NCBI GenBank assembly: GCA_002269645.1
Contig: NIVC01002955.1
Location: 1 to 64,000, forward strand
Origin: Macrostomum lignano
Lineage: Eukaryota
Direction of reading: 5' to 3'
DNA: 64,000 nt
In this document: piece by piece, positions 17,442 through 42,742 of the stretch
Numbering within the stretch: the stretch's first letter is position 1
Layout of the letters: each line of letters begins with the position of its first letter
Program-made: the position numbers and the translations under genes
Notes under the pieces: model-generated
Told to the model about the DNA's origin: nothing
Seen by the model: the letters and a program-made list of their open reading frames with translations, nothing else
Database searches by the model: none

Positions 17442-17941
17442 TGTGGTAGGCCGGTCTACCACTTGGAGGATGACAGCAGTCGTTGATGCAAACAAGGCAA
17501 CTCTCCACCTGATGAACGATTGACGTCATTAATTTTCATCTGCTGATGATGGAAGTACTGACGGGGGCGCAGACGCCGCGAATAGGCCGCGAGGCCCCTA
17601 TCGAAACCCCAAGGTAAAATAGCACAAGGATTAAGCCTGGGGGTGCGCCCAGTCCCCTGTGCGCCCAATCTGTTGATGATTGATCCCTTGTCTGTTCTCC
17701 CGGCTGTCCCGTCCGTTGTTGCCCTGTTTGCTCCATTTGCTGCCCCATACCTTGTCCGTTTTGTTTTACTGTGTCCCACGGCTGGCTTTTTCCCTTTTCC
17801 TTTGGGTGCCCTTTTCACTGTTCCTTTCGGTGCCCCACCCTCTAGGATTAGTCATGCCCAATACTATTTATGTCTGTGTAACCAATTTTGCTCTCATTCT
17901 ACTCCTTGGTTGTGTTGCATTCCGTTTTAGTTTGTTCTTTT
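17442..17941 (+). mobile_element. Left half of an older solo LTR (same family as the 17942-29595 element), split by that insertion
   Basis: Starts TGTGGTAGG..CTACCAC, paralleling the young LTR start TGTGGCAGG..TGCCAC. The left flank CAAT matches the CAAT after 30261 (4-bp TSD). Confidence 0.7.
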
Positions 17942-18936
17942 TGTGGCAGGTGGGTTGCCACTAAAACTTTAATACGTCTAATAACAATGATAATAACAAT
18001 TTTAATTTAATTCGACTCCCAATTCCCGGACATTTTTCCTTGTTACTTTTCCCACGGTTGTGTCTCCTTTTTCCCGGTGTTGTTTTGAGTTCTCCTATGG
18101 TTGTCCCTTCGGTTTGCCCCGCCGTTGGAATGTGTTTTCCTTTTGTTGATATTTCCCAATTTTGCTACCTTATGTGCTGCGATTTTTTGGTCTATCCGGT
18201 TGCCCACGGGCTCGCCCACTCTGTTGTCCTGTCATCCGTCCCAACCCCCGCCCTGGGATTGAATTTAATGTCTTTTCTTATTTAAGTTTCGGTTTCTGCC
18301 GCGATGTTTTTTACTTCTTCCTTCGCTCTCTCCTTGTTTAGTTTTAGTTAATTTTATTCATTGCGCTGTCTCGGCATCCGTCGTCGCCCCCCCCCCATTT
18401 TTTTCGTTCGCAACAAAATATATTTCCAACGCCTGCTAACAAAACGTTTTAATGAATTATAATTAATAAACAAATAACGCCGACGAATTAAATTATTAAC
18501 TACTCTTTATCCGTTGATTTAAGCCATAGCCTATCTTGAATCCTTTGCCCGTGGGGCAAAAATAACCGAAGTCTCATCTCAAAGAAAGCTCTGAGACCAT
18601 TAGACGTTCCGTAATACGTGAATTACGGTGGTGGCAGCAACTACCCTACTAAAAGTAACAAGTTCAACTCATCGACGCATTAATTTACGGAGTCAGAATC
18701 TCCTGTGTTTCTACAACTGAACGACCGTGCCGCTCTACGACCGCTCCGCTACGATTACAACTAACCTCCCCCCGGACTTGAGAACCCGGCTGTCGGAGTA
18801 AAAGGAGAAGAAATTCGTTGGGATTCACCTGCGCGATCTTTCCGGCTTAATTCGTGCGAACACAACGCTAACCGGTTTCGAAGAAAACCCGAACAACCCC
18901 ACTTCAAATTTTAAATTCTTCTCCACCCCCACCTCA
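17942..18936 (+). repeat. 5' LTR (995 bp)
   Basis: TGTGGCAGGTGGG...CCCCCACCTCA; direct repeat of 28602-29595. Confidence 0.96.
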
Positions 18937-18937
18937 C

Positions 18938-18957
18938 TGGTGTCAGCTAAGTGGGAT
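18938..18957 (+). promoter_or_regulatory. Primer-binding site, tRNA-Leu type with a 2-nt insertion
   Basis: TGGTGTCAG-CT-AAGTGGGAT lies one base after the LTR end. TGGTGTCAGAAGTGGGAT is the complement of a common eukaryotic tRNA-Leu 3' end. Confidence 0.75.
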
Positions 18958-19003
18958 AACGAGACGCCAAAACCCATTCGACGAGTCGTTCAGAATCTAC
19001 GTT

Positions 19004-20382
19004 ATGGCTTCAACTACTAATTCAACGGCCGCGGATGCGACAACCGACGCCGCAGGCCCCGACAACACCGCGACGAGACCGACGTACGACGAGATGATTC
19101 GAGCAGTGACCGACGAGGTGCGCCGGCGCTTGGAGCAGACCAGCCTGGGTCAGCCGCAACACCATCATCATGTGTACCAGCAGCCCCAGCAGCAGGATCG
19201 AGCTCCGGCGCCGAAACCGGTCAAGATTCAGCGGTACACGCCCAACCAGGAATTCGACGTCTGGATCAAGGCTCTCGAGGAGCGATGCGAGCTCAACGGG
19301 ATCGTTGACGACAGACGAAAGAAGGCGGAGGACATCGCCACCACCTACCCCGCAGTCGTTAGGATGGAGTTGCCGGATAATCTGGCGTTTGGTGAGTTCA
19401 AACAGCGATTATCTGAACGCTTTACGCATGTTGCCGACACGCTGGAGTACCGGGAGCAGTTCTGAAGCTGCCAGCAGGGCAAGAACGAGAGTGTGGATGA
19501 CTACGGCGACCGACTAATTGCTCTTGCCGATCGAGCGTTTCCGCATTTTACCCCGGTTCAGAAGCAGGCTGAACTGGTGGATCAGTTCACTGTGGGAGTC
19601 CGGATTGCTCAGTCGGCGAGAGAACAGCTAATCCATGGTGCGACCGCAGAATCTGACCGCAGCGAGAAGGGCTGTGCTACGCCTAGAAACAGCAGCTAGC
19701 CTGGCTCAGCGTGTAGCACCGCCGCCAGCAGCGAGACACGTCCGGGTCCTGGAGAATGACGACAGTCAGACGCCCACTGGGGTGCAACACGACGCCAAGT
19801 CATCTCGGCCAGAGGAAAACTGGTTGCGCGAGGTGATGGAACAACAAGCCGAGACTCTGCAAGAGCAGCGACGTCTACTTGAGACTTTAAGTAGCGAGAT
19901 GCGAGAGTTCTACTCGCGGGGATCGCGCGATAACGACACCCCGGAGCCATGGGAACCTAGCCATCAGCCACGGGACTCGTGGGGCCAGCGCTCCAGATGC
20001 TTGGTACCCCCGACTCCTCGTCGCAGCGCCGATGGAAGCGCCCCAATTTACGACACCCGGCACACGAATGGTGCCGCAGCAACCGTTCTATCGACTTCAG
20101 AAACCACGAGACGGCAGCAACCCGCCGCCGAGAACGCCGCCAGCAGGAGGTCAACGTCAGCAGCAGCAGCAGCTGCAGCAACGGTCGAGTTCGAGGCCGC
20201 CGCCCTATCAACAGCGGCGGCAGAATGCAATGTGCTGCAGGTGCAACCGCGAGCATCGCGCTGACGAATGCCCGCACCGACGGTCGGCCAGCACCGCGCC
20301 CCAGCGCAACAGCAGCTCGGGAAACGGGACGGCTGGACGCGCCATCGGGGGCAGCGCCATCCAGCAGCCGAGCCAGCACTAA
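19004..20382 (+). pseudogene. gag: Gypsy gag (disrupted)
   Basis: ATG at 19004; capsid-like FDVWIKALEERCELNG and EQF*SCQQGKNESVDDYGDRLIALADRAFP; zinc knuckle CCRCNREHRADECPH. One in-frame TGA (19463) and at least two frameshifts (~19633 and ~19950-20030). Confidence 0.88.
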
Positions 20383-23300
20383 AGTCCCCGCCGCGGACTT
20401 TAGTCGCTCAGCAGGCTACTGCTGAGACCGCCTCCGCCGCACCTGTACAGACATTTGCACCCAAGCGACCTCGGAGAGACCCCTTTCTAACTGGTGAGAT
20501 TCAGGGCCGCTATTTTGCTTTCTTGCTTGACACCGGGTCCAAGTGCGAAGTCCTTGGATTCAGCACCTGGCACCGCCTATGTACTGACGACCCGACCCTG
20601 CGTGGCCAAATTGAGCCCTGCCTGCAGCCCATTGTAACCTACAATGGCGAACCTATTAAGATGGCAGGCCAGCTTTCTATTAAAGTTAAAATTGGCAATT
20701 TCGAGCCAACTGTCAAGTTTCTGCTAGCGAAGGGATCGCATGACAACATCTTGGGCTTCGAGTTCCTGGAGAAGTACGGCACCTCACTGGATCTCACAGC
20801 CGGGATGCTGTTCTTCAAGGACGGCACCGCCGCACCACTTCGCTACACGCGAACTGAAGCTACCACGTGCAGAATTTACACGGCCGAGAGCACAACCGTG
20901 CCGCCGCTGTCATCAGCCCGAATCAAAATTAAGCTAGCTAAAGGACGTGAAGAAAACCAGGGTACACCCGCTGTGATCGAGCCGCTGAAACCGGCTCGGC
21001 GCGAAGAAGATGTGCAGCACCTGGACGCCGCGCCTGCCCTAATCTCCATGGCTAACGGAGAAGGCGCTATCGAGATGATCAATCGAGGCACCACGGCCAT
21101 CAAAGTGCGAGCGAATGTCCTAGTTGGGATTGCAAGACCAATCAGACTGCCCGAGCTACAATTTTTTCCGCTGAAATCAGAAGATTCTGTCAATCAAGTC
21201 CAAGACGAGGATCCCGATGCTTGGATTAAGGAGATCGATATCAGCGAGGATCTGTCCGGTGACCAGCGCGCTCAAGTCATCGAGCTATTGAAGAAGTACA
21301 AGACCATCTTCTCTCAGGGGCCACACGACCTCGGCCGAACTCATCTGGTCACCCACAGTATTGTACTAAAGGACACGAATCCTGTGCAGCTACAGACTCG
21401 CCGGATCCCGCCGCATCTGCTGCCCAAAGTGGATCAGCTACTCGATGACCTGCTGGCCAAAGGCGTGATCCGACCGAGTTTCTCCAGCTACAACACCCCG
21501 CTGGTGATCATCCCGAAGAAGGACGGTAGCCTGCGAATTGTACAAGATTTTCGGAGTCTGAATCAGAAGTGCGAGTACTTTCCGTACCCGATTCCTAACA
21601 TCCAAGAAGCATTCTCCAGCCTCGAAGGAAGCCAACTATTCAGCACATTTGATCTGAACAGCGGCTATTATCAGATTCCTCTGCGTCCAGAAGACCAAGA
21701 CCTGACAGCCTTTGCTACGCTGCACCGCGGACAATTCGCCTACAACGTTATGCCAATGGGATTAAGTTCGGCGCCAGCCAGCTTCATGCGCCTCATGAAT
21801 GCTGTGCTCAACGGGATCGCCTACAAAAGTGCTATCGCCTATCTGGATGATGTAATAGTCTATTCTAAGAAATTTAATGACCATCTACAGTATATGGAAG
21901 AAGTATTCAAACGAGTCCAAAAAGCCAACCTAAAGTTCAAAGGCAAGAAGTGCCATCTATTTCGGGCAAGTCTAAACTACCTGGGACATGTGGTGACAAA
22001 AGACGGAATCAGGACCGACCCAGCGAAGATTGAGGCAATTCAAACCTGGCCAAGACCAAGGACAGCCCGACAGCTTAAAAGTTTTGTCTGCACGTGCGCT
22101 TACTATGCTAAATTCGTACCTGGCTATGCAGAACTTGCTGCTCCGCTCCACGATTTAATCAAAGAGAAGAAAATCCGAAATTTCAATTGTCTATGGGGAA
22201 AAGCCCAGCAAGACGCGTTCGATCAGCTCAAGGCAGCAATGACTTCGACATCAGTGCTCGCGTATCGGCAGTTCAGCGAGGATCCTAATGTAATGTTTAT
22301 CCTGGACACGGATGCTTCTGCGACCAGAATCGGAGCCTGCCTGAGCCAACGCCAAGCTGATGGAGTTGAGCAACCAATTGGCTATTTCTCCCGGCGACTC
22401 AAACCGACCGAAGCCCGGTATCCGATCACTAAACAGGAACTCTTGGCAGTCGTAGATGGGATGCGACATTTCTGATTCTACCTTCTGGCCAAGAAGTTCA
22501 TCTGCCGAACCGATCATGCCGCATTAACCTGGATCTTAAGGCAAACTCAGCAAGAAGGAATCTTTGGAAGATGGCTACAGCGCCTCAGTGAATTCGAGTT
22601 CGAGATCCAACACCGAAAGTCTAGTCAGCATCAGAACGCCGACGGTCTCTCAAGACGGCCTGAGGACGACGCTGAATGCATGGAGGAGGCCCAGCGTGAG
22701 GCCGCAGTCGAGGACCAAAGTAAGCAGCCAGCCGCGATAACTGGCGCAGCGGCGCCGAAGGTCCACGACAGCAGCCACCCTAGTCCTCCACCGAGCAAGA
22801 AGCGACCGACCCGCCGTCACCGACGAAAGCCGCCGACGCAGTCAACAGAGTCCAACGGCGAGACGACGCCACCCGCAACACCGACAGCCGACAGCAAGCC
22901 GCTGACAGAGCTGCATCCGCCGGTGACGGAGGTCGGTGACGCTGACAGAGGTCGCCTACCAGCTTTAGCAGCACGACATGTTGCCCGACAAGGAGCCGCC
23001 GTCTACTAGCTGAAGGCGACAAGGACAGCGACCACAGCGCAGCGCGAGATGACCGCTGCCGGCCCGCTCGCTGCCCTAAGTTCAAGAAGAAGGTGAGATT
23101 CAGCAGCGACGCCGACAGCTCTGCTGACTCATCAACATCCGCTGACGACTCCAATTCCGACAACAGTGACGCCGAAACTACCGACGAAGATCGGCCTTCA
23201 AATTCATCAACAGCCCGGCAACCGGTCAGAGTAGCGATCATGCGGAGGGAGCTCCAGACCCCGAACCATGCCGCCACAGCCGAAGCCGCGCCGACAAATT

Positions 23301-24886
23301 CTACCGACAGACGCCGAACTTTAAACTTAACTGATCACATCCCGAGACCAGTCACCCGCGAGGAGCTCCAGACCCATCAGCGTGCTGACTCCGCCATCGC
23401 GATGATGATCAACTTAATCGAAAGTCGACAACCGAAACCGCCGCTGAATCAGCGCTTAAACCTGTCAAGAGACGAGCGAAACCTATTAGCGTTCTATGAA
23501 CAATTGGAAGTCCGAGACGATGGACTTTTAGTCATCCATCTCGATGATATTGGCGAGGAGGACAAAGCGAGGATCGTCTTGCCGAAGATTCTCGATGCCA
23601 CCGTGTTCGCCGACCTTTATGGTTCGCCCTACTGCGGACACATGGGCCGAGATCTCCCTATCGCGAAGGTGCGTGAAAGATTCTGGCGACCGGCCCTGGC
23701 CAAGGCCGTGTCCGACTACGTCGCTTCCTGCCAGACCTGCACCCAGAGCAAAGGACGGCGACGCATCCCGGCACATGTACAATCGTTTCTGGTCTGCGAA
23801 ATCTATGGGCGATGCGCAATCGACATCATGGGCCCTACTGGCGACCCGACAGACCGAGGCAATAAGTACATCCTCACCTATGTCGACACGACGTCGAAGT
23901 ACCCTTTCGCCTTCGCCATGAAAAATCAGCGCGCTAAGACGATAATAACTCTCCTGCAAGAACAAGTCTTCCCGATCACCGGAATCCCCGCTTGGATCCA
24001 TTCGGATCAAGGCAAGCAGTTCACAGGACATGAGTTTCGACATTTCTGCGAAGTTTATGGCATTCGACAAACAACGACGCCGCCATACTCGCCCTGGGCC
24101 AATGGACAAGCTGAATCGTGCAACAAAAACATTAAGAAGGTGCTCACTTGTCTCCTAGAAGACCATCAGCAATGGGACAAGATGCTGCCAGCCGCTTTGA
24201 CAGCCCTGCGATCAGCTGTCAACCGTACGACGGGATTCTCGCCGCATTACGTCATCTACAGAGTGCCCTATCGGTACCCCATCGATAACACCCTAGACCG
24301 CCTGGACGTATCACCGGACCTCCCCGAGTACATTGCAAAGCATCAGCGCAGACTGGCCGAGACCGAGAGGATTGTGCGACAGCGATTGCGAGCTGAGATC
24401 CAGCGCCGCGAAGAGTATTACGAGAACCGACCCAAGCCCGTGGAACTGCAGCCCGGAGACCTGGTCTGCCTGGCCAACCCGAAGCTCGAGTTGGGCGAGC
24501 TGCCAAAGTTTCACCGGCCGTACAAGAGTATGTACAAGGTCAACAGAAAAGTCGGCGAAGTAGCCTATTGGATCCAGCCAGCAACAGCCCGACGTGGACG
24601 CCCAGCCGAAATGTTAGTACATCGCAACAACATAATCAAGGTGCCGCAGATGATGGCAGACCGACCGCAGGAGCCGCCGCACCAAACTGAGCGGCCAATG
24701 TTGCCCTTCGAGTCGAGTGACGAAAGCGAAGTCGACCCCGCCGATCAGCCCGCGCCAGAGCAGCCAGCCGCAGCCTCGCCTGAGCTGCGCGGCAGTCAGC
24801 TGTTCGAACCGAGCCTCCGCCATCCGGGAGTACTGCCTGAAGGCGACCCGGATCTGCCCGACATCGGTAGGGAGATCGAGGTTTAA
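20268..24886 (+). pseudogene. pol: Gypsy pol (protease, RT, RNase H, long linker, integrase), disrupted
   Basis: LLDTGS protease; RT motifs FDLNSGYYQ, MPMGL and YLDD; RNase H motifs LDTDAS, QELLAVV, TDH and NADGLSR; integrase GHMG..CQTC, AIDIMGP, HSDQG and a GPY/F-like RPYKSMYKV. TGA at 22473 and frame breaks at ~22950-23010. Confidence 0.93.
20319..20378 (+). promoter_or_regulatory. -1 programmed ribosomal frameshift signal (slippery heptamer plus downstream stem)
   Basis: G GGA AAC is in X XXY YYZ register in the gag frame, pol overlaps in the -1 frame, and a GC-rich inverted repeat (CGGCTGGA...TCCAGCAGCCG) starts ~5 nt downstream. Confidence 0.75.
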
Positions 24887-25064
24887 ACAGGTATTTACCA
24901 GCGAAATTCATTATTATTGCGTCTAATTGCTAATTAACGATGCGCATTACTAAAAGTAGTCAAGCCGGTGAACGCGTTTTAATTATGTATTTGCTGTAAG
25001 CTTTCTCGGCACCCGCTCTGTGCTGAAAGCAGAATTCTAATTTAGCGGTTCAATTTGCTGTAAT

Positions 25065-25335
25065 TTTCCCGTTTAATTCCTCCTTATGCTTTCAGGATAA
25101 AAGCAGGCGTCATTTGTAACTTTCCGTTCAATTTGTGTACTTTTCCTTATGCTTCAGGGTTAAAAGCAATCAATTCGTGTATTTTCCTTATGCTTCAGGG
25201 TTAAAAGCAATCATTTGTACTTCCTTATGCTTGAGGGTCAAAAGCAGTTTCATTTCAATGTACTTTCCTTATGCTTGAGGGTTAAAAGCAGCTTTTCATT
25301 TTGCCGTTCCCTACGCTTTCCGGTTAAAAGCAGTG
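25065..25335 (+). repeat. Imperfect ~40-50-bp tandem repeats in the Gypsy 3' region
   Basis: Five to six copies of a TTCCTTATGCTT(C/G)AGGGTTAAAAGCA core. Confidence 0.75.
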
Positions 25336-26147
25336 TATATTTTGAACAGTTTTCGGTACCCACGTTAAGTGCGCGATTTGCTAGTTATCCAATGCGTTTC
25401 AATAATTCAGCACTCATGCGCTATATACTTATCCTTAAGCTTTCCGGCTAAAGCTCGCACCAATGCGATCATGCTTATTCAACGCGACAAATATTTATCC
25501 AATGCAAAATATTTAATCAATGCGATACAGTAAAGCCATTGCTCAATCGCGCATCCCCATTTCATGTAAGCTTCGTTGCACACGCTCAAAGTGCAGAAGT
25601 GCCCTTTTCATTATGCTTACAGAAAAGCAACCGAGTTTGTAAGCCTTCCAGTTCGATTAAAACTGAAGGTATTTCTTTCCCGTTTGCGAGCCCACTGTCT
25701 AAGGGCCCAAACTGTCCGGTGCCCCGCTCAGGTCTGGCCGCCCCGGATCCAGGCCTTGCCCTCAGCGGAAGGCATTCAAGGACTCGACCCCCCCTTTTTT
25801 TCTTTGTTCTGATTTTGAGCCTGGGAACCCGTGAAGGCCGCCGGTTTGGCTCCTCTTCCCAGTGCCATTTGTCAGCCCTGTGCATTGTAACTCTTTACGG
25901 ACGCCTCCTTGCGAATCTTATATATATGTTAACTTACTACTATTTCTATTATTCTATTTTAACTTTCTGTTTACGCGATTTTAGTTTTCTCAACCGCCAA
26001 CCTGTTCAATGTAAGCCCTTCAAAGGCCCCCATCTGATTTCATTTAGTTCTGCCCCCGCTGTGCGGTTATCTGTTTTATTGCCTTTGATTTCATGCGCCC
26101 ACCCCATTCTGTGCGCGCCCGCCATAGAGTGCAAGGAGGGGTGCCAG

Positions 26148-27498
26148 CACAGACCATATAGAATATAGACTGCGAATCTCGGGGGCCTGCCCAGGCACGT
26201 TGTGGGACAAAAAAGCAACACAAAAAATGGTCCTTCCCCAAAGCCCCAACTTCGATCGATATGTGGGACAAAAAATGGGCAAGTGCAAGTTTTCAAGCTT
26301 GAAATTTACTTATTATAGAGTTTAAAACCCCAGGGAGGCAAAATAAATGTAAATTAGATTTGAATTGAATTGATCGAATTGAATTGAATTGAAATTGAAT
26401 TGAATTGAATTGAGTTGAAATTGAAATTGATTTGAATTAGAATTTCCTTGCAAAAATATCCAGCAAAAAATCAATTAAAGCATTCTTATCCATGCAGCCA
26501 GCTTCTATAGTGTATCAAAAAGGAGAAAAGCGCCAGAAAATGTGGCAACTAGTGCTGTGCTCAGGGAGCTGAACAAGAAGCACGAGCGACTAAGGGCGCG
26601 GTTAAAGTCACAGACAGAAATTGTGAAAGTGCTGAAGGTAAAGAATATTGTGGATGTAGCTGCAGCATCCCATCTGCAGTTTCTGTCATCAAATTCATTG
26701 TTAGTGCCAACTAAAAACAAGAGGATAAAAAGTTTCCCCCTGAAGTTCGGCGATTTGCTTCCACGTTGCACTACAGTCCTAAGGCATACGAAATTACGAA
26801 TACGTGAGAAAATTTTTCCAGCTTCCGCGCATCTATCTTCTTTACGGAAATGGATCTCAAGTGTGCGATGCTTTCCAGGATTCTGCGTCCAAGCATTCCA
26901 ATAACTATTCTGCTGAACACCGAAACGATTATTCGCCGCTCCGGCTTTGATAGCTGCTTTTCAAGCTCAATCGCTGTGTCAAGAGACTTTGAATTAGAAT
27001 TTCACTTTGAATTTCAACTGCTATTCTCTGAATTAGATTCGCATTCAGCAGCTGTTAGCACAGGTATTGAGTCACACAAGCTGCAGCTGTTAGCACAGGT
27101 ATTGAGTCAAGAAAGTTATGAGCATTTTTTACATCAGAATTCGCATGAAGAAAATTGCGAAAGACATGTCGCACTTATTAAGAAAGGCAGGAAGGAGACA
27201 GAAGCTGCTGCGCACAGCAATTTTTCTTATTCTGAAAGCTCGGACTTTGAAGGACATTTTGGGGTAATTTAATTTAATTTCATTACTTTTATGTAATTTG
27301 GTTTGCGTGGCGTTTTTGTAAAAAGTAAGAAAAAATGTATCTCAATTGCATGTGTCCAATAGGAGCACAATGGAAAAGAGGCCCGCCCTGTACCACATAT
27401 CGATCTAGCTGGGGTGGGTGAGAGGGACCAGTTTCTTATGGGGGAAAATGGCCCACTTTTTTCTTCACTTTACTGGTTTATATTCTATATGGTCTGTG
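26148..27498 (+). mobile_element. Internally deleted P-element/THAP9-family DNA transposon (1351 bp) nested in the Gypsy
   Basis: Perfect 20-bp TIR CACAGACCATATAGAATATA plus a subterminal inverted GATCGATATGTGG. N-terminal transposase remnant RFASTLHY-SPKAYE..IREKIF..HLSSLRKWISSVRCFPGF and C-terminal remnant FYIRIRMKKIAK..RQKLLRTAIF. Internal (GAATT)n at ~26360-26440. No clean TSD. Confidence 0.85.
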
Positions 27499-27762
27499 GT
27501 TGAGCCCTTTTCCCCCTTTTTCAACTGTTGGTTGTTTGCCGGCCTATTTAAGCCAGCGCGCCGGCCCGGACCAGTTTTCTCTAAACCGTGTAATATTTCT
27601 GGTTTTGTAACCATCAATTTGCGACCATTTAGCGACCTAATTTTTGAAAAATCTTCAATCGGCGACCAAGTTCTGTGACTATCAAACAGCGACCAAGGCT
27701 GCGAATCATCCCTAGCGACCTGATTGGCGATCGTCAATTGCGGCCAGATCTTTCAACTCAGC

Positions 27763-28551
27763 ATGGCTCAAGACCCCATGTGGCACGGCGCTGAAGCTAG
27801 CCCTTCGCTGTTGAGCCTACTTGAGGAGGGCGGAATTGAGCCTGCCCAACTCGCCGTAGCTGAGCCACCGGCGCCACCGCCAAGCCCGGACGCTTGGGTG
27901 AATGGCTACCTGGACCAGGTCCGGGCGGCCCAAACACCAGAAATCGCCGATCTGGACATCGTCCGAATCCTGGGACCCGACCGCGTCGTACCACCAATGC
28001 CGCCAGCCGGCTGGGAGCCTGGTAGCAGTCCGGCGCTGCCTGCTGACCAGCTTCAGCCAGAGGCCCCGCAGCCGCCCGCACCTGAGCTGGAGCCCGCACA
28101 GCTCCTAGCGGAGCTGCTCAGTTGGGAACTGCGAAGCGGCCTGGGCACTCGGTGGGTTAATGATTGTCACCATTGGACAGTTTTTGCCCGACACTACCCG
28201 CCTTCCGCGGCCGCACTGGCAATTGAGGCCGTTATTTCTCAGCTGGGCGACCACCTTAAGAGAAGCAAGGCGGGGCCGCAGGTCGGCCCGACATGCAGCC
28301 TTTTGGCACTCTTGGTCGAGCACGCGGCCCTGAGGCAAGGCATCTCGCCCAGACTGGATAAGTTCTTCCAGACCACCCGAGTGGCCAGCTGGGCCCCTGC
28401 TCCGGGACCACTACATCGGCCTCCGAAGAGTCTGATGGCCAAGAGGATGCCGCCGACCTGCAGGATCAAGCCGCCCGACCACCGCGACAGAGCCGCAAGT
28501 CACCCTTCGAATCGCGAAGGATGGGCTCCCGCTAAAAGAGGCCAATACTAA
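27763..28551 (+). CDS. Intact accessory ORF3 (262 aa) of the Gypsy element, unknown function, not env-like
   Basis: ATG-to-TAA ORF ending 50 bp before the 3' LTR. Acidic Pro-rich N-terminal half, helical-looking core and basic tail; no signal peptide or TM segment. Confidence 0.7.
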   Translation: MAQDPMWHGAEASPSLLSLLEEGGIEPAQLAVAEPPAPPPSPDAWVNGYLDQVRAAQTPEIADLDIVRILGPDRVVPPMPPAGWEPGSSPALPADQLQPEAPQPPAPELEPAQLLAELLSWELRSGLGTRWVNDCHHWTVFARHYPPSAAALAIEAVISQLGDHLKRSKAGPQVGPTCSLLALLVEHAALRQGISPRLDKFFQTTRVASWAPAPGPLHRPPKSLMAKRMPPTCRIKPPDHRDRAASHPSNREGWAPAKRGQY

Positions 28552-28601
28552 GAGGCAAGGAGTTGCCTAATTCTCGCAACACCCTACGGCGCCCCCGAGC
28601 C

Positions 28602-29595
28602 TGTGGCAGGTGGGTTGCCACTAAAACTTTAATATGTCTAATAACAATAATAATAACAATTTTAATTTAATTCGACTCCCAATTCCCGGAAATTTTTCCT
28701 TGTTACTTTTTGCACGGTTGTGTCTCCTTTTTCCCGGCGTTGTTTGGAGTTCTCCTATGGTTGTCCCTTCGGTTTGCCCCGCCGTTGGAATGTGTTTCCC
28801 TTTTGTTGATATTTCCCAATTTTGCTACCTTATGTGTTGCGATTTTTTGGTTCATCTGGTTGCCCACGGGCTCGCCCACCCTGTTGTCCTGTCATCCGTC
28901 CCAACCCCCACCCTGGGATTGAATTTAATGTCTTTTCTTATTTAAGTTTTGGTTTCTGGTACGATGTTTTTTACTTCTTCCTTCGCTCTCTCCTTGTTTA
29001 GTTTTAGTTAATTTTATTCATTGTGCTGTCTCAGCATCCGTTGTCGCCCCCCCCCATTTTTCTCGTTCACAACAAAATAAATTTCCAATGCCTGCTAACA
29101 AAATGTTTTAATGAATTATAATTAATAAACAAATAACGCCGACGAATTAAATTATTAACTACTCTTTATCCATTGATTTAAGCCATAGCCTATCTTGAAT
29201 CCTTTGCCCGTGGGGCAAAAATAACCGAAGTCTCATCTCAAAGAAAACTCTGAGACCATTAGACGTTCCGTAATACATGAATTACGGTGGTGGCAGCAAC
29301 TACCCTACTAAAACTAACAAGTTCAACTCATCGACGCATTAATTTACGGAGTCAGAATCTCCTGTGTTTCTACAACTGAACGACCGTGCCGCTCTACAAC
29401 TGCTCCGCTACGATTACAACTACCCTCCCCCCGGACTTGAGAACCCAGCTGTCGGAGTAAAAGGAGAAGAAATTCGTTGGGATTCACCTGCGCAGTCTTT
29501 CTGGCTTAATTCGTGCGAACGCAACACTAACCGGTTTCAAAGAAAACCCAAACAACCCCACTTCAAATTTTAAATTCTTCTCCACCCCCACCTCA
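28602..29595 (+). repeat. 3' LTR (994 bp)
   Basis: Direct repeat of 17942-18936 (~42 differences by hand count), followed by the TSD TTTT. Confidence 0.96.
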
Positions 29596-29599
29596 TTTT

Positions 29600-30261
29600 G
29601 TGTTCTAGTAAGCTTGTGCTCTATCTTGTGCATAACTACTTTGTTTGTTTATTCTTCAACTTAAGCACTGCTAGCATCTGATTTTATTTTAGTCACCCTA
29701 TTGCTCGCTCTTGGCACCACCGAATTGTTCTCCGTCGAGTCTGCCACAAAGTAATAATTTAGTAACACTTGCAGTATACCATTATCCAGTTTATCAGCAT
29801 AATAAAATTTAACCAATTTAATAATTATTTCTTCATTCATTCTTATTCGAAGCCCTTAGTTTTCTATTGAGTTATTTGCCCACAAGATGTAAAACAATCA
29901 ATTAGTCTCATCTCAAAGAAAGCACTGAGACCCTTAATGTTCCATAATACAAAATTATGGTGGTGGCAACACTACTCTACTACTGATAGTAACAAACCAA
30001 GCATATCAACAGATTATGAATTTTACAGTGTCTGGGGACCCAATTGAATGACTGTGCCATTAAAAGACTGTCTGCTGAGGTCCTCAATTCTGGGGGGAGG
30101 GTAGTTGTAATTCGCAGTTGAGCAGAGTATCAAAGGAGAAGCAATAAGAATCAGTTCTTGAAATTTTCTAGCTTTACAAGTGCCGAGACAACACAGGTGA
30201 CAATACAAACTTAGAAACCTGCCCACCCTTACAAATTCTTTTCTTCTCTGCTCCCACCTCA
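29600..30261 (+). mobile_element. Right half of the older solo LTR
   Basis: Colinear diverged homology to the young LTR (GTCTCATCTCAAAGAAAGCACTGAGAC block; terminus TTCTTCTCTGCTCCCACCTCA), followed by the TSD CAAT. Contains a ~55-bp inversion. Confidence 0.8.
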
Positions 30262-33441: not shown

Positions 33442-36400
33442 TGTCATGCCGCAGCCCTGCACTCGCTTGTTTTTGCTAAACGGGGTGCCTAGCAGTGTGG
33501 GGTGCTCACACACTGTACTTAGTTTGTGTACACTGTACCCCTGGCTTTCCTCCCCCCTTTTTATGCCTGTTATGCCTACGCAGCCACACGTGATTGGTCA
33601 AGACCTAAAGCCAAAAATATGTATCGGCGCTCTCGCCCTACTTGGAGGGCTAAGCATTTTTGCACTGCAAAATTGAGACTGACTTCTGAGCCATTACATT
33701 GGCGTCGCAAGGCCGGACCATGGCCTTTCTACAATTGCTGTCCCCAGGAAAATTCAGTCTCAGAGACAACCCTCACTCTGTGAGCAAGCGCTGGCAGGAC
33801 TGGTCCGCCAACCTGCAGCGATACCTGGTGGCAACGGGCATTACTGACGAAGCCCAGAAGCGACAAATTCTATTGTACACAGCTAGCAAAGAAGTGAGCG
33901 ACCTGTACAACCAAATTTCTGCAGACACAGCCGACAAACCAGTCCGACCAGGGCACTGCTCAGCAGCCAATGGTCGACCAGCTCATCCAGCAGTTCAGCA
34001 ACCACCTCAAAGACCAAGACAATGTAGTTTTCATTCGCTACCAATTCCAACAGTGCCACCAGGACGAAGGAGAGCCCATAGACGCCTGGCATAGCCGGCT
34101 GTGGGGAGCCTCAGAGGCCTGCCAGTTCGAGGGCCTCCGCCAGTCACTCATCAGGGACCAAATCGTGGCCAGCTGCCGCAGCGAGTCGCTGAGAAAAAGA
34201 CTGCTGAACGTGCCAAACATCAGCCTGGCGGACACCCTACAGCTGGCCAGAATGCACAAAGCCACAGAGAAGCAGGCAGCCATCATGTCCAACATAGCGG
34301 CAATCCCGGAGGAGGTGGCACAGCTTCGATGCCAGCGCCATCCACCACAAAAGCCACCACGCGACCTGCAGTCTACCTCCAAGTGCGTCCGTTGCAGTGA
34401 GCTGGGCTACCAAAGCTGCAGCAAAGCCCAAGGCAAGTGGTGCAGCAGCTGCGGCAAAATGAATCATCTGGCCAAGGCTTGCCTCAGTGGCCACTCAAAG
34501 ATCAACGCACTGCAGCCAGAGCAAGATCAGCCAGCCGACCAGTTGGTGAGCGAAGTGTTCTGCACCCTCAGCACCAAAGATGACAGAGCCAAATTCAGCA
34601 TCGACATCAATGGACAGCAAATCCACACCCTTATTGACAGTGGGGCAAGCTGCAATGTTCTGGACAAGGCAACATTCTGCAGAGTCTGCCGCCCTGGCAC
34701 GCCGCTGACACCGTCCAACACTAGAGTCTTCGCACTCGGCGCCAGCGAACCGCTGGAGGTGGCGGGCCAGATCAAGCTACCAGTCAGTGCAAACCACCGC
34801 GAGTTGGAGGCCACCTTTATCATCATCAACAGCAGCTGCACTCCGATACTCAGCAGAGTGTCCAGCACCAAACTCGGCATGCTGAGGGTTGGTCCAGAGG
34901 TCGGAAAAGAATCTGCGATAGTGGCCAGCCTGGCCAAGCCAGCGGACTGTGAGGACCGCCATCTGCCCAAGCAACTGCAGTTCCAGAGCATCCTGGCAGG
35001 CTTCAGCGACCGCTTCCAAGGCATCGGATACGTCAAGGGAGTCAGCGTCACCATCAAGCTAAGGCCAGATGCCAACCCAGTCTGCCAGCCATTGTCCCAC
35101 GTACCAGTCCACCTGAGGACAGCAGTTGTCAAGGAGCTCGAGGACCAACTGGCACAAGGCATCGTCGAGCGCGTGCACAGCCCAACAGCCTGGTGCTCCA
35201 GGATGGTGGTGGTCCCGAAGGCCGAGCAGGGAGAGGTGCGCATCACCCAAGATCTACGCCAGGTCAACAAGTACGTGGTCCTAGAAAAACAACCGATCCC
35301 AACATTCGAGGTGACTGATGAGATGGCCGGGTTTGAGTACTTCTCAGAGCTTGAGGTCGCCAAAGCCTTCCATCAAATTGAAGTCGCCAAAGAGTCCAGG
35401 GACCTACTGACGTTCTCCACGCCCATCGGCCTCCTGCGACTGCGCCGTCTCTGCATGGGCTATACATCCACCTCAGAGATCCTGCAGCGGGTGATGACCT
35501 CCATGCTGAGTGGTCTCCCAGGCATACGCTGGGTGCATGACGACATCCTGGTGTACGCGAAGGACATCAAGGAGCACAATCAGCGTCTTCGAGACTGCCT
35601 GGCTCAGCTAAAGGAGAGCAATATCACACTGAACGCCAAGAAGTGTCGATTCGCCCAGCAGGAGGTCGACTTCCTTGCCATGCGCCTCACGGCCGCCGGC
35701 ATCCACCCGAGCAAGGAGAAGGTGGAGGCTGTCCGCAGCTTCAAGCGGCCAACCAACGCGACCGAGGTCCGCTCCTTCCTGGGCCTTGTCACCTTCGTGG
35801 CCCGCTTCATCAGCAACCTGTCCGACAGAGCCCGGCCATTATGGGAGCTGATGAAGCGAGCTGCCGAGTGGACCTGGGGCGAGCAGCAGGAAGCCGCTTT
35901 TAACGACATCAAGCGCACAATCTCCAGCAGCCAGGCGCTGGCATTCTTCAACAGCGAACTGCAGACCCAGCTGATTGTCGACGCCAGCCCGACTGGCGTC
36001 GGCGCCATCCTGGCCCAGGTGCAGCCTGACGGATTGACACGATCCGAGATCGACACGGATCGACACGAGCGTTGGTGGCCTACACCAGCCGCAGTCTGAG
36101 CCCAACTGAGCAGCGCTACTCCCAGATGGAGTGCGAGGCCCTGGCAGTGAAGTACGGTGGCCTGAAATTCCGTCACTACCTCAGCGGCGGCGGACAGTTC
36201 AAGGTCATCACTGACCACGTCACCACAAGCCGCTGATCTCGCTGTTCAGCCCGGGATCTTGTCCACCGCCAAGGATCGAGCGAATGGCACTGTGGCTGCA
36301 AGACCTTGTGTTCCAGGTGGTGTACCAGCCTGGTGCCAACAACCCATCCAACGTTTTGAGCCGATGCCGCCCAACAACGTTGGTGAGCAAGAAGACGCCA

Positions 36401-38126
36401 TCTACGTGGCCACGGCAGTCCAAGCAGCAACGCTGGTGTCCATCAGCCTGGCCACCATCAAAGCGGCCTCCAACCAAGATGCCACAGTCCAAGCTGCACT
36501 CCATGGCATCTGCGGTCATTGCTGGGACAAGAGCGACCCGAACCTGAGGGGGCTGCACGGCGTTGCCCACGAGTTGTCCGAGCTTGATAGCCTGCTGCTG
36601 CGTCAGGGCCAGATCTTCATGCCAACAGCACTGCGCTACCAATGCCTGCAGCTGGCGCATCAAGGCCACCAGGGCATCAGAAAGATGCTGGATCGCCTTC
36701 AAGCCAAGGTCTGGTGGCCCAGAATGCGAGCATCAGTCGAGTCTCACGTGGCGGCCTGCCTGAGCTGCCAGATCTGCACCCGCGAGACCACGCCGAAGGG
36801 GACGCCGCTCAAGCCGACCGAACTACCGGCAGCGCCCTGGCTGGAGCTCGGCATGGACTTCCTCGGGCCCGTCAACGGCAAGTTGCTGCTTGTCTGCACG
36901 GACCACTTCTCGCGCTTCCCACTGGTCGAGGTCATGTCCAGCACCACCGCCGCCACAGTCATTCGCGTGCTACGGAATTGGTTCAGCATCTTTGGGCAGC
37001 TGATGAAAGTGACGACCAACAACAGCACGCCCTTCGTGTCGGCCGAGTTCAGCAGCTTCCTGGTGGACCAAGGCGCCAGGCACCACTGAATCACTCCGCT
37101 GTACCCACAGGCCAACGGCGCTACGGAAAGGTGCAACCAGGGACTCAACAAGGCCATCCGTGCGGATGTGGCCGAAGGCAGGGACTGGACGGCAGCAATC
37201 AACGAGTACCTGGCCGTGTACAGATGCACTCCGCACAGCGCTACTGGGATTGCGCCCGCCAGCCTTCTGTTTGGGTGGCAGATCACCAACACGATTCTCA
37301 ACCTCCAGCAATCGCAGCCGGTGGACGCGACGAGAGCAGCCATCAAGGACAAGGACCAGCAGTCCAAGGCGAAGATGAAGCACTACGCCGACCAAAGGAC
37401 CAAGGCAGCAGACCATGACATTCGGCCAGGAGACCATGTCCTGCGATGGCTGCAAACCAGACAAAAGGCCGACGCCTTCTATGAGTCGACGCTGTGGGTC
37501 GTGTCTGAAGTGCTCGGCAACTCGCTGGTCATGCAGCGCGACGACACCACCTGCCGCAGGCACGCCACGCAGGTCAAGCGGCTGCCAGAACCACCAGACC
37601 AGCCAGCCAGGCTGGCGCCGCAGCCGCCTGGCATCCCAGGCAGCTCGGACGAGGTGGAGTCGCCGATTGCGGCTCGGCCGCACCCGCGCCAGGCCAAAGG
37701 CAGAGACAAGAACTATAAACAAGCTGATTTGCACATGCACTAATTGACTGTTTGATTTCTTTGCAAACTTTTGTGCGCGCTTCGCTATTTATTTCTGGCA
37801 ATCATGTTGCCTCCAATATTCCTTTTTTTAGTCTAAATCCCTATTATTTTTATTCCACTTGGGGAGAATTGTCATGCCGCAGCCCTGCACTCGCTTGTTT
37901 TTGCTAAACAAGGTGCCCAGCAGTGTGGGGTGCTCACACACTGTACTTAGTTTGTGTACACTGTACCCCCGGCTTTCCTCCCCCCTTTTTATGCCTGTTA
38001 TGCCTATGCGGCCGCACGTGATTGGTCGAGACCTAAAGCCAAAAATATATATCGGCACTCTCGCCCTACTTGGAGGGCCAAGCGTTTTTGCACTGCAAAG
38101 TTGAGACTGACTTCTGAGCCATTACA
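33442..38126 (+). mobile_element. Complete compact Ty3/Gypsy (Mag/K02A2.6-like) LTR retrotransposon, 4685 bp, non-functional
   Basis: 257-bp LTRs (33442-33698, 37870-38126; 13 differences), 5-bp TSD AACAG, a PBS starting TGGCGTCGC at 33700 and a short PPT GGGGAGAA at 37861. Confidence 0.96.
33720..37743 (+). pseudogene. Single gag-pol ORF of the Mag-type element, disrupted
   Basis: Gag RWQDWSANLQRYLVATGI, paired Cys/His knuckles, protease LIDSGA, RT VHDD, RNase H VDAS..ECEALAV..ITDH, and integrase HQGH..CLSC, MDFLGP. Frameshifts at ~33950, ~36050 and ~36240, TGA at 37087, and the second integrase Asp changed to Asn. Confidence 0.92.
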
Positions 38127-39412: not shown

Positions 39413-40203
39413 TACGGAAAAAATTAACTGTAAGTTGTGATAGAATAGATTGTTTCCTAACTTAAGACAGGAGACAATCTGAATCAGGACAGGACAGTAG
39501 GCCTATGAACAATTTTTTAAGCTTTTTCCTATCCTTAACTTATTATTATTTTTTTTGAAATGAAAATACTGACGAAGAATTTAGTTAAGGATGTGGCAGT
39601 TACCAGCTTACCAGTTAGCGGTCGCAGTGTCTGTCACTACCATTCGATCACTAAAAAAGGATTTCCTCGAATTTTTCAAAGCTGCTATTGATGATAATTT
39701 AATTTTTGTAACGTACTTTTTTGGCAGCTTTTAATTATTTAAATGTGTTTATTTTGTTTAAATTTATAAAAAGTGCTTAGCTTAATAATCTATTGGCTAT
39801 GGTCGATTGTGTTTTTGTTAAACTGCTCAAATTCGCTGTACCGGGTTAAATGATTAGTAGGTTTTTCATATTACCGAATCCAAAACCAGAATCGGTTCGA
39901 AGCTTTTCATATTGTCTGTTCCGTTTTCAGAATCGGTTCCAGAACCGTGATCCGATTCTGGAATTCGGTTTGAGAAATTTTCTACATCTATTTGTCATGT
40001 TTATTTTTTACACTTTTTAACAGTACAAAAAATATATATTTGAAATCGTCAATTTTTTATTATTGATATATTAGTACTCTGTTTTTTGTCATATCCAAGA
40101 CGAAGCAAAGTCAAGGAAAAACAAAATTATATTATAAAGACTGACAAACATAAAATAGGTTCGAAGCTTTTCGATCATTTTCCTACCGATTCTGGTTCTG
40201 GAA

Positions 40204-41680
40204 TTGGAATTATTCTGGTTCTGGAACCAATCTTCGGGAAAAGCCTATAGGAGCAGAGCTTTAATAGCCTTGCTTTTACGCAACAAAAATGCAACAGTGC
40301 AGGAAATTGAAGCACTTCAGTCGATGCTGCCGCAGCAAAGCACTCCAAGTCGAAGAGCAGACAAGATCGACGGTCATGATCTACGCGGTGCATGGCAGCG
40401 ACGAGATCCGAGTCGAGCTTCAACTGGGAAACTGCTCGGAGTCTCTCAGCCTGAATGGTCGACTGCGGCGCCAAAGTTTCTCTGCTCAACGAGGCTACGG
40501 CGAGAAGTCTGGGCGACATCGATTCTGAAGCCATCGGCAGTGCAGCTACGAGCTTACGGTGGGAAGAAGATCGCCGTCGCGGGGCTCGCAACAGTCGGCG
40601 TCGAGTACCGCGGCCAAGAACTGCAACAAGACTTTCACGTCACTAGGTCGGGCGAAAATATCGTCGGCCGCGATCTGATGCAGAAGCAGGGCATATCCAA
40701 GTGCCACTCCAGCCTCACGATGTCAACATCGGAATTGCCAACGTGGACATCTCCAGGGAGTTCCCAGCGGTCTTTGGCGTATTAATCGGTCGATCTCTGC
40801 AGAGAGGAGCGGTGCATTAACCGAGGATCGACACGGCTGTGCCACGGCCAGTGCAGCAGCCGCTGCGCCGCCTGCCACTCGCCAAGCAGCAACAGATTGG
40901 TGAGGAGTTCGACCGTCTGGAGGCAGCAGGCATCATCGAGCGGGTCAACTTAAGCCCATGGATTTCTAATCTGGTCGTAGCGAACAAGAAGGATGGCAGC
41001 ATTCGAGTGTGCATCGACGTGCGCGAAGCAAATAAGTCGCTAATCATCGACCGACACCCGATGCCGCAGCTGGACGAGATCTCCGCGAAGATCAAGGCGG
41101 CCGGCAACCGCATGTTCTTCAAGATCGACCTCAAGGCGGGCTACATGTACATGCAAATGCAGCTACATGAGTCATCACGTGACCTGACGGGGCTTGTACC
41201 GTTACTTCCGGGTGCCGTTTGGCCTAGCGTCTGCTCCGGCGGCCTTCCAGAGGATGCTGGACGACCTGATGGCCCATCTGCCTCACCGTCAACAAGGACC
41301 GGCTCCGCTGCAGCCCCTGCCATGGCCAGATTCGCCGTGGACAGAGATCGCCATCGACATCGTGGATGAACTGCAGGCAGCGCCGGCGTCGTCACGATTC
41401 CTACTGGTCATCACGAATCTGCACAGCAAGTGGCCGGAGGACTTCAAGGTCTGTAAGGTGCTACGCAGCCTGTTCGCACGCTGGGGCCTCTGCGAGAAGG
41501 TCCTCACCGACAACGGACCTCAGTTCGGCGACGCCTTCACCGGGTCCTGCGAGAGCGGGGCATCCAACACCTGAAGACTTGTCCGTACCAACTGAGCACC
41601 AAAGGCCAAACCGAGCGGCTCAACAGGTCCCTGATGGACAGCATTCGAGCGTCTAGAGCCGACAACGTGCCGATCTACCA
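40204..41680 (+). mobile_element. Heavily deleted Ty3/Gypsy internal remnant (gag-PR-RT-IN pieces), no LTRs seen
   Basis: Protease MVDCGAKVSLL..GRDL; RT NKKDGSIRVCIDVREAN..KIDLKAGY..VPFGLASAPAAFQ joined directly to integrase PWPDSPWTEIAIDI..LTDNGPQF. Confidence 0.88.
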
Positions 41681-42742
41681 TAAGTACCATAAGTATGGTA
41701 TAACGTAAATGCTAACTTTATTATTATTATTAGTGTTTTTTACGTATAATGCGGCCACTTTCAGTAGAGTAGTTGAAAAATTAACTGTATAATGTATTAT
41801 TGATCACGTGAAATCTCTGGCGATCTTTAATTTATCGATCCTGTAGTGTTTCTAAGATGACTAAAATATAATAAAGAAACTGTGCGCACCCTGGCACATT
41901 ACTTTCAACTACAACTATTACAACTACGCTCGTATTACAACTATTAACACAAAACAAACCTGTTATCCTTTCTCTCTTCTCTCTTCTCCCATCTTCTCTC
42001 TCCCATTTCGATCTTTTCTCTCTTCTATCTTCTATTCTCTTAATTCGGTCTCTCCTTAAAATTCTCTCTCCTCTCTTCCCTCTACTTTCCACTTCTGGCC
42101 TTGCAGCCAGGTAGAAAATTTTGACAACACCAGCAAAAAAGCTATCTACCCCAGCTCAGCTGGTTGAGTGCATGCAGTTTCATTTTTCAGACGAATTTTT
42201 CTGTGTTAGTATTATCCTAGCTGTCGCAAATACTAGGAGTACCTAATAAATTGATGTAATTGCATTAATTCTGCTAATAATCCATTTGAGAGAACAAGCA
42301 GTAGCACTGTACATGTACCTTAAATTCGCTTTTTCCTGTCTCCAACAGATACTGTACATTGTAAATTGACCCAACAACTTCAACAATGAAAATTCGGTAC
42401 ATTTAAATGTAAGACTTCAGCACAATATTACGTAATAATAATAATAATAACCGAAGGAGGGCTTCGGGCACCCTGGCGCCAACGCCTTCGCGGCGACATC
42501 GTCCCACACTACCAGCGCTGAGGCAATTCTGCCGCCCATTCCGCTGACTCCTGCATGAGCACATGCATGTACTGTACACACGCTCACACAGGGTGTACAT
42601 AGGTACAGCGGCCCTGACTTTCTAAGTGTCAGGCATGTACAAGCTCTCTGCGCCTTGGGGGTTGGCCTTCATAGCAAGGAAAGCTCGTTTCTTAGAAAAT
42701 TTTAGAAGGCAGGTTTTCCCGAAAAAATACACTACGGAGATA

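What the first reader, a model, noticed from the sequence alone, without database searches (positions are those of the whole stretch)
27500..28601. Gypsy element with an intact non-env accessory gene that appears to have its own promoter: a possible complex-retrovirus-like regulatory module
Seen: a 262-aa ORF lies 2.9 kb after pol and ends 50 bp before the 3' LTR. It is uninterrupted, whereas gag and pol carry several lesions (it is also a smaller target). It has no signal peptide or TM, so it is not env; it has an acidic Pro-rich N-terminus, a helical core and a basic tail. A TATA-like TATTTAAG (27545) and five GCGACC hexamers (27621, 27632, 27662, 27689, 27715) precede the ATG. Known: foamy viruses express a transactivator from an internal promoter next to the 3' LTR. 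Inference: with the ~1-kb structured LTR, this could be an undescribed transactivator/response-element (or anti-silencing) system in an invertebrate LTR retrotransposon. I recognise no homologue.
Basis: partly seen in the sequence, partly recalled or inferred. Interest (0 to 1): 0.75.

Follow-up and report, generated by a model that had tools for sequence, protein, structure and literature searches.

The report
Fast-evolving orphan gene in flatworm retrotransposon
A jumping gene of a marine flatworm carries, just before its end repeat, an extra gene for a small non-envelope protein that a close sister element has in the same place in far more diverged form; it is likely read from its own promoter and likely helps the element get expressed, but neither is shown.

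Summary
The coordinates hold: a 262-aa ORF (27763-28551) ends 50 bp before the 3' LTR of a Macrostomum lignano Ty3/Gypsy element, with TATTTAAG at 27545 and five GCGACC. ORF3 is a real accessory gene. A sister element whose Gag/Pol is 85-91% identical has a collinear homologue at 33% in the same slot. A third relative is a transcript-derived M. lignano gene model. The core is predicted as five helices with no assignable fold; there is no membrane segment. An internal promoter is plausible: TATA plus an initiator-like motif 28 nt on, then an ATG-free leader.

Corrections: 1.35 kb of the 2.9-kb spacer is a nested P/THAP-like transposon. The hexamers lie downstream of the TATA and are absent from the LTR. 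The LTR is not globally structured. Intactness of this copy alone is uninformative (P 0.53). Nothing tested supports transactivation specifically. Non-env ORF3s, internal promoters and regulatory ORFs are already published for LTR elements (Tor, CERV, rotifer ORF3s), and this scan noted similar orphan ORF3s on other DNA. What is new is the protein family and its roughly 7-11-fold greater divergence than gag/pol.

The parts
17942..18936 (+). 5' LTR (TG..CA, 995 bp); TATTTAAG at 18279, AATAAA at 18465, small hairpin cluster about 18544-18635
   Evidence: 95.8% identical to the 3' LTR, K2P 0.043; 4-bp target duplication TTTT
18938..18956 (+). primer-binding site, tRNA-Leu-like (tRNA identity recalled, not tested)
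   Evidence: sequence directly after the 5' LTR
19007..20382 (+). gag, broken (in-frame stop and frame changes); CCHC-like knuckle near its end
   Evidence: 89-91% aa identical to the sister element in P0003
20265..24886 (+). pol: protease, RT, RNase H, long linker, integrase; broken by a stop and a frame change
   Evidence: Pfam RVT_1 E 3e-32, RT_RNaseH, rve, Integrase_H2C2; integrase 91% identical to M. lignano PAA81992
24887..26147 (+). non-coding spacer after pol, with six imperfect copies of a 35-nt repeat at 25078-25339
   Evidence: D3; divergent contigs lie on it
26148..27498 (+). nested non-autonomous DNA transposon with about 20-bp TIRs and a decayed fragment resembling THAP9/P transposase (resemblance recalled; Pfam gave no hit); no clean target duplication
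   Evidence: (I3); contigs with other flanks end exactly at 26148 (loose ends, run X12)
27545..27576 (+). candidate internal core promoter: TATTTAAG plus initiator-like CCAGTT (A at 27573, 28 nt after the first T)
   Evidence: only + strand match of the pattern in the 64-kb window; 3 of 5000 shuffles; pattern fixed after seeing the sequence
27573..27762 (+). predicted 190-nt 5' leader without ATG, holding five GCGACC hexamers; CAG directly before the start codon
   Evidence: not structured (z +0.83)
27763..28551 (+). ORF3, 262 aa: acidic Pro-rich N-part with a conserved W..G[YF]L..V.AAQ helix, five-helix core (residues 107-212), basic tail
28552..28601 (+). 50-nt gap to the 3' LTR; no polypurine tract abutting the LTR (purine-rich stretches end about 40 nt upstream)
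28602..29595 (+). 3' LTR (994 bp); its AATAAA at 29124 would terminate an ORF3 mRNA (inferred)
17442..17941 (+). left half of an older, related solo LTR into which the element inserted (probable)
   Evidence: TG start and CAAT flank; weak gapped similarity to the LTR
29600..30260 (+). right half of the same older solo LTR
   Evidence: 404 of 581 aligned positions identical to the 3' LTR, CA end and CAAT flank

Best explanation
ORF3 is a selected, non-envelope accessory gene of a Macrostomum Ty3/Gypsy family, likely transcribed as its own short mRNA from an internal TATA/initiator promoter, and predicted to make a soluble adaptor protein that would raise the element's own expression against host control. 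Shown: the open frame, the homologue in the same slot of a sister element, no membrane segment, and far greater divergence than gag/pol. Inferred: transcription starts near 27573, runs through a 190-nt ATG-free leader and ends at the 3' LTR poly(A) signal. The basic tail would bind nucleic acid or direct nuclear import, the helical core would bind a host or element partner, and the acidic Pro-rich part with one conserved amphipathic helix would recruit a cofactor. ORF3 and U3 appear to form a subfamily-specific 3' cassette on a shared gag-pol/R-U5 backbone. Step odds: real accessory gene 0.9; internal promoter rather than splicing 0.5; role in expression (transactivation, counter-silencing or RNA export) 0.45; transactivation of the LTR specifically about 0.15.
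For: phmmer of 1.84 billion representatives gave 2 hits, both M. lignano: P0002 (45%, E 1e-17) and P0003 (35%, E 2e-8). P0003 is a chimeric gene model that reads gag (91%, 89%), protease region (85%), linker (89%), integrase (84%; 72% in a gapped part), then the ORF3 homologue (33%), then LTR-like sequence. The match runs along the whole ORF. At that divergence about 11 nonsense changes would be expected without selection (P 1e-5; about 5, P 6e-3, against P0002). Amino-acid distance is 1.16 for ORF3 against 0.10-0.17 for gag/pol. The acidic-core-basic layout is shared with P0003. In contig runs, many divergent contigs lie on gag/pol and R-U5, whereas the ORF3 pieces listed have 0 differences (X4 record 23, X8 records 30-31, X12 records 7-8) and summed depth there is some 50-200-fold lower (not a copy number). 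TATA plus initiator spacing: 3 of 5000 shuffles; no ATG in 264 nt: 86 of 5000. The same 8-mer sits at LTR position 338. P0002's gene comes from an RNA-seq-based annotation (PMC5730564) and is listed as differentially expressed (PMC7336406 supplement), so a family member is transcribed. Foamy Tas proteins are of like size (209-308 aa), poorly conserved and carry an acidic activation domain (PMC3798896).
Against: No transcript, start site or protein of this copy was seen. The promoter pattern was fixed after seeing the sequence, uses a recalled initiator consensus, and could not be checked in a sister copy. A CAG sits 1 nt before the ATG, so splicing remains open. The core is not basic (net +1). 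Its best fold matches are generic helical stacks, Z 9.4 or less, under the bar of about 13 for helical bundles. GCGACC is absent from the LTR, and only one 10-mer is shared between the promoter region and the LTR. The family rests on three sequences from one species. P0003 is a chimeric prediction whose ORF3 start is a model junction, and the genomic context of P0002 is unknown. The 27 invariant columns of 109 are about what uniform rates give (about 25, my arithmetic), so no catalytic or binding motif stands out. Co-variation of ORF3 and U3 could be plain linkage. A basic RG-rich tail can also be a by-product of a purine tract.
Confidence: 0.4

Rival explanations
1. ORF3 is a real accessory gene but is expressed by splicing from the 5' LTR transcript, like env or like CERV of Cer1, and acts on genomic RNA (export, packaging, stability).
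For: CAG directly before the ATG. ORF3s are typically spliced units (PMC5408684). CERV precedent in an invertebrate Gypsy element (PMC10309623). Basic, partly RG-containing tails in all three proteins. Small hairpins in U5 are kept in the older solo LTR, one with a compensatory pair by my reading.
Against: No GT[GA]AG donor in the 5' leader. The one donor in gag (19392) is out of frame with both CAG acceptors that are open to the ORF; only a weak AAG downstream of the ATG is in frame. The CAG does not match the M. lignano trans-splice motif YTNCAG (PMC8629364). A protein binding conserved U5 hairpins would be expected to be conserved itself.
Confidence: 0.22
2. ORF3 is a structural or targeting accessory (particle or integration adaptor) and not a regulator of expression.
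For: The helical-stack topology resembles generic protein-interaction domains (MIF4G, translin, MUN). The element sits inside an older related solo LTR, which could reflect targeting.
Against: One insertion site is an anecdote. Gag and integrase are 85-91% conserved between sisters while ORF3 is 33%, which fits poorly with binding to them.
Confidence: 0.15
3. ORF3 is a captured fragment of a fast-evolving host gene family (P0002 being the host gene), carried passively or with a function unrelated to the element.
For: P0002 is annotated as a core gene after a filter against repeat overlap. Its older model P0007 joins it to a CHMP2A gene, not to gag/pol. It has an extra N-terminal region.
Against: The frame stayed open in two elements across 1.16 substitutions per site. 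The repeat filter also let an integrase of this family through (P0004). ORF3 is intronless, with GC3 like the element's integrase.
Confidence: 0.13
4. Strict foamy-like circuit: ORF3 binds DNA response elements at the internal promoter and in U3 and transactivates both, each subfamily with its own specificity.
For: Position, size, acidic region and candidate internal promoter parallel Tas; Tas proteins are poorly conserved and the response elements need not be alike. ORF3 and U3 are both the variable parts.
Against: No shared hexamer between promoter region and LTR. The hexamers lie downstream of the TATA. The core is not basic.
Confidence: 0.1

Closest known systems
Oikopleura Tor3b/Tor4b elements, third ORF from an internal promoter (PMC4402516; passages read)
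   Same: Invertebrate LTR retroelement; third ORF after pol; promoter in the intergenic space after pol (Tor4b)
   Different: Tor's ORF is a membrane glycoprotein (Env) and its start sites are mapped; here the protein is soluble and the promoter is only predicted
CERV of C. elegans Cer1 (PMC10309623; abstract and passages read)
   Same: Ty3/Gypsy, non-env ORF in the env slot, lineage-restricted, regulatory
   Different: CERV is a 517-aa spliced product sharing its N-terminus with Gag, with a Cys loop; no in-frame Gag fusion through the CAG acceptors here; no sequence match found
Foamy virus Tas and internal promoter (PMC3798896; passages read)
   Same: 200-300-aa poorly conserved protein with an acidic region next to the 3' LTR; candidate internal TATA promoter
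   Different: A retrovirus with env; DNA binding and transactivation are proven there and untested here; no sequence or fold match found
Additional ORFs of rotifer and plant LTR elements: GDSL, DEDDy, TM, coiled-coil ORF3s (PMC5408684, passages); Grande gene23 and other aORFs (PMC7264820, passages)
   Same: Family-specific extra ORF between pol and 3' LTR; Grande's is nuclear and has its own promoter (title of a cited paper only)
   Different: No Pfam match to those enzymes; sense orientation, whereas Grande's is antisense; plant antisense aORFs are described as conserved like gag/pol, whereas this one diverges 7-11 times more
VANC anti-silencing proteins of VANDAL DNA transposons (named in PMC13547354, passages; mechanism recalled)
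   Same: Fast-evolving element-encoded accessory protein with short repeated motifs in the element's non-coding DNA
   Different: Plant DNA transposons and DNA methylation; MAIN-derived fold; no match and no binding data here

Membership tests
Ty3/Gypsy LTR retrotransposon | Two TG..CA LTRs, target duplication, primer-binding site | tested here: met
Ty3/Gypsy LTR retrotransposon | Order protease-RT-RNase H-integrase | tested here: met
Ty3/Gypsy LTR retrotransposon | Polypurine tract abutting the 3' LTR | tested here: not met
   longest purine run is 8 nt at 28534; none next to the LTR. Atypical, and does not outweigh the other features
Gmr1/Osvaldo or another named clade | RT phylogeny with reference elements | not tested
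   no reference sequences at hand; M. lignano clades are listed in PMC12801592
env-like ORF3 | Transmembrane segment and hydrophobic signal sequence | tested here: not met
   best 19-residue hydropathy 1.05, in the core; acidic N-part; no dedicated signal-peptide predictor run
Foamy Tas/internal promoter system | Internal promoter driving the accessory ORF | tested here: inconclusive
   sequence pattern present; no start-site data
Foamy Tas/internal promoter system | Homology or fold likeness to Tas | tested here: inconclusive
   no Pfam, PDB-sequence, Foldseek pdb or viral match; not listed is not excluded
Foamy Tas/internal promoter system | DNA binding to response elements and transactivation of the LTR | not testable with these tools
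   GCGACC absent from the LTR, but foamy elements need not be alike
CERV/Rev-like export factor | Spliced mRNA joining the Gag N-terminus to the ORF | tested here: inconclusive
   the gag donor at 19392 is out of frame with both CAG acceptors, in frame only with a weak AAG; no RNA data
CERV/Rev-like export factor | Required for export of unspliced genomic RNA | not testable with these tools
   needs an experiment
Rotifer enzymatic ORF3s (GDSL, DEDDy) | Pfam-detectable alpha/beta enzyme domain | tested here: inconclusive
   0 Pfam families; the all-helical model at pLDDT 70.6 argues against it
VANC-like anti-silencer | Short motif arrays in non-coding element DNA bound by the protein | tested here: inconclusive
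   five GCGACC and six 35-nt repeats are present; binding untested

The most novel reading that the evidence does not exclude
A high-copy flatworm Gypsy family keeps one gag-pol/R-U5 backbone but carries a panel of deeply diverged, swappable ORF3-U3 cassettes. Each has its own internal promoter and encodes a self-specific activator or anti-silencer for its own U3: a foamy/VANC-like autoregulatory arms-race module in an animal retrotransposon, built on a new helical domain.
Probability: 0.12. Interest if true: 0.8.

Novelty: new variant of a known kind. Interest (0 to 1): 0.45.

Why it matters
Accessory ORFs of animal LTR retrotransposons are common but almost never functionally explained; CERV is the one worked-out invertebrate case I found. 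Here a new protein family diverges about 7-11 times more than gag/pol between sister elements while staying open, which points to host conflict or cassette exchange. The host has transgenesis and a published LTR-reporter assay (PMC12801592), so the question of whether animal retrotransposons encode their own activators or anti-silencers is directly testable. If ORF3 has no regulatory effect, this is one more orphan ORF3.

Tried and rejected
Homology. Word-index search with P0001: 0 hits among 8000 candidates (it also missed P0002, so it is insensitive). Profile search of longer proteins: 1 hit, P0002. Pfam and NCBIfam: 0 families. PDB sequences: 0. ESM Atlas: nothing usable for P0001 or P0002. 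Viral and metagenome contigs: 0 of 47 and 0 of 205 pattern matches confirmed. No second ORF3 copy in the window.

Structure. The single-sequence model was poor (pLDDT 46.6). Foldseek pdb and viral: 0 matches at E 0.001 or less. VIA wide search: only generic helical stacks, so no fold family is assigned and none is excluded. Homodimer job: no answer, alignment not used. The idea that the N-half of P0002 duplicates the core was rejected (126 of 2000 shuffles scored as well; HHalign 0.07%).

RNA. No RNA holder listed. X12 and X13 are only guessed RNA and their profiles resemble the DNA-like runs. X12 record 7 runs unspliced across 27463-27935. None of the 15 joints shown reaches 27762, and 122 were hidden. 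None of this is evidence on expression. Rfam: one chance hit. The leader and R-U5 do not fold better than shuffles. No canonical heat-shock element in the LTRs. SL trans-splicing at the pre-ATG AG: motif not matched. Hexamers as a high-copy MITE relic: not favoured, since summed depth there is as low as on ORF3.

No whole genome was held, so there is no dN/dS and no context for P0002 or P0003. Mlig013834 was not found in main texts or in the supplements of PMC12801592 and PMC7806878. The orthogroup file of PMC7336406 was cut when stored, so its silence is inconclusive.

Full report
Observation. The element runs from a 5' LTR at 17942-18936 to a 3' LTR at 28602-29595 (95.8% identical; K2P 0.043), with TG..CA ends, a TTTT target duplication and a primer-binding site. 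Pfam finds protease, RT, RNase H and integrase in Ty3/Gypsy order; gag and pol are broken. The integrase is 91% identical to a Macrostomum lignano protein, which names the host. The hexamer cluster is beyond chance (0 of 2000 shuffles), and so, more modestly, is the open frame (11 of 2000 on the + strand). GC and GC3 match the element's coding regions.

Nearly half of the 2.9-kb spacer is a nested 1351-bp DNA transposon (26148-27498) with terminal inverted repeats. Contigs with other flanks end at its left boundary, and it holds a decayed fragment that I recall as THAP9/P-like (no Pfam hit). It has no clean target duplication and ends 46 nt before the TATA, so whatever lay upstream of the candidate promoter is displaced or lost in this copy. 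The hexamers lie downstream of the TATA, in the predicted leader, and none occurs in either LTR. The LTR's R-U5 part folds no better than shuffles; 1 of 24 windows, a hairpin cluster at 18542-18621, stands out. That ORF3 is intact in this copy is weak evidence: P is about 0.53 of no nonsense change since insertion.

ORF3 is a real accessory gene. A phmmer scan of 1.84 billion representatives returned 2 proteins, both M. lignano. P0003 is a chimeric gene model that walks through a sister element: gag 91% and 89%, protease region 85%, linker 89%, integrase 84% (72% in a gapped part), then a 33% homologue of ORF3, then LTR-like sequence. The homology is collinear (9/32, 10/22, 13/39, 37/105 and 7/40 identities from N-end to tail). 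Where that ORF starts is uncertain, because it is a model junction. Without selection about 11 nonsense changes are expected at that distance (an analytic estimate that ignores indels). Amino-acid distance is 1.16 against 0.10-0.17 for gag/pol. P0002 (PAA73306.1, 291 aa) matches the core at 45%. It comes from an RNA-seq-based annotation (PMC5730564, passages) and is listed as lower in octets than in isolated worms (PMC7336406, one supplement row and passages), so a relative is transcribed. Whether P0002 lies in an element is unknown; an older model joins it to CHMP2A.

A variable 3' cassette. I laid 4 of the 24 listed runs, all contigs, on 17930-28620 at 85% likeness. Many divergent contigs lie on gag, pol and R-U5 (summed depth 1168-2889 in X8 and 684-1307 in X4 over gag/pol). 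Depth falls along the spacer and is 13-17 over the leader and ORF3, where the listed pieces have 0 differences; the first U3 bin is 139-147. Summed depth is not a copy number and the tables are cut (1898 variant rows, 122 joints and 11,186 pieces hidden). The contrast still indicates that this ORF3 has few or no close nucleotide relatives while gag-pol has many. This does not show that the other copies carry an ORF3 at all. I cannot separate fast evolution from cassette exchange without sister DNA.

Protein. There is no membrane segment. An acidic Pro-rich N-part, a neutral core and a basic tail are shared with P0003. With a three-sequence alignment the core folds to five helices (pLDDT 70.6, pTM 0.68). 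Foldseek found nothing at E 0.001 or less. The wide search gave Munc13 (Z 9.4, rmsd 3.9, 109 aligned), SepL (9.1, 2.1, 77), C3PO (9.0, 3.6, 100) and NOT1 MIF4G (7.7, 3.2, 98), all within the range of common helical arrangements. The fold gives no function.

Expression route. For an internal promoter: a TATA with an initiator-like motif 28 nt downstream is the only + strand match in the window (3 of 5000 shuffles); there is no ATG in the 264 nt before the start (86 of 5000); and the same 8-mer sits at LTR position 338, near where the variable and shared LTR parts meet. The pattern was set after seeing the sequence, from a recalled consensus. For splicing: a CAG lies 1 nt before the ATG. Against it, the leader has no GT[GA]AG donor, the gag donor is out of frame with both CAG acceptors, and the site does not match the species' trans-splice motif. 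No RNA evidence bears on this copy.

Mechanism. I commit to an internally promoted, soluble adaptor that raises the element's expression (overall 0.4). Rivals are spliced CERV-like action on genomic RNA (0.22), a structural or targeting role (0.15), passive capture of a host gene (0.13) and a strict Tas-like circuit (0.1). All functional steps are inferred from architecture and rate.

Comparison and novelty. Third ORFs from internal promoters (Tor; PMC4402516, passages), regulatory non-env ORFs (CERV; PMC10309623, abstract and passages) and diverse ORF3s (PMC5408684, PMC7264820, passages) are published. Tas is described from passages of PMC3798896 and VANC from passages of PMC13547354 plus recall. 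I found no description of this ORF in the searches (listings only), or in PMC12801592 (abstract, first part of the results, one methods section, term search, supplement 1 and the first parts of supplements 2 and 5). The 2020 classification of M. lignano LTR elements that it cites was not read and may mention it, and bioRxiv supplements were closed. Earlier notes of this scan report similar orphan ORF3s in other genomes (unchecked); none matched by sequence or place. Verdict: a new protein family in a known kind of arrangement, notable for its divergence relative to gag/pol; interest 0.45.

Noticed in passing
window 17442-17941 and 29600-30260: The element sits inside an older, related solo LTR (CAAT flanks, about 70% identity in the right half). 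It could be chance or targeting to family LTRs.
   Followed up: partly
window 29413-29445 and 18754-18786 versus 30079-30111: A 33-nt segment of U5, resembling a polypurine tract plus TG on the opposite strand, is inverted in the older solo LTR between short complementary arms.
   Followed up: no
window 28552-28601: No polypurine tract abuts the 3' LTR; how plus-strand synthesis is primed is unexplained.
   Followed up: partly
window 18544-18635, 29203-29294 and about 29904-29975: A cluster of small U5 hairpins is kept between the LTR and the diverged solo LTR, one with an apparent compensatory pair: a candidate cis-acting RNA element.
   Followed up: partly
window 22620-23330: An unusually long (about 230 aa) low-complexity linker between RNase H and integrase is conserved at 84-89% in the sister element.
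   Followed up: no
window 20319-20325: A GGGAAAC slippery-type heptamer at the gag-pol overlap: candidate -1 frameshift site (pattern recalled).
   Followed up: no
window 27541: Contigs of runs X4 and X8 both begin exactly at 27541, just before the TATA: either an allelic difference next to it or another locus sharing the TATA-containing 30-mer.
   Followed up: no
window 25078-25339: Six imperfect 35-nt repeats after pol, several ending in acceptor-like YTNCAG sites; they vary in number among contigs.
   Followed up: no
window 33442-38126 and 40159-41656: A second, decayed Gypsy element with 257-bp LTRs (94.9%) and no room for a third ORF, and fragments of a third element.
   Followed up: partly
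window 626-3031, minus strand: An 801-codon stop-free frame with no convincing Pfam family (best TPR_SYO1, E 0.06).
   Followed up: partly
window 42740-43271: A MITE-like inverted repeat with 150-nt arms at 97% complementarity.
   Followed up: no
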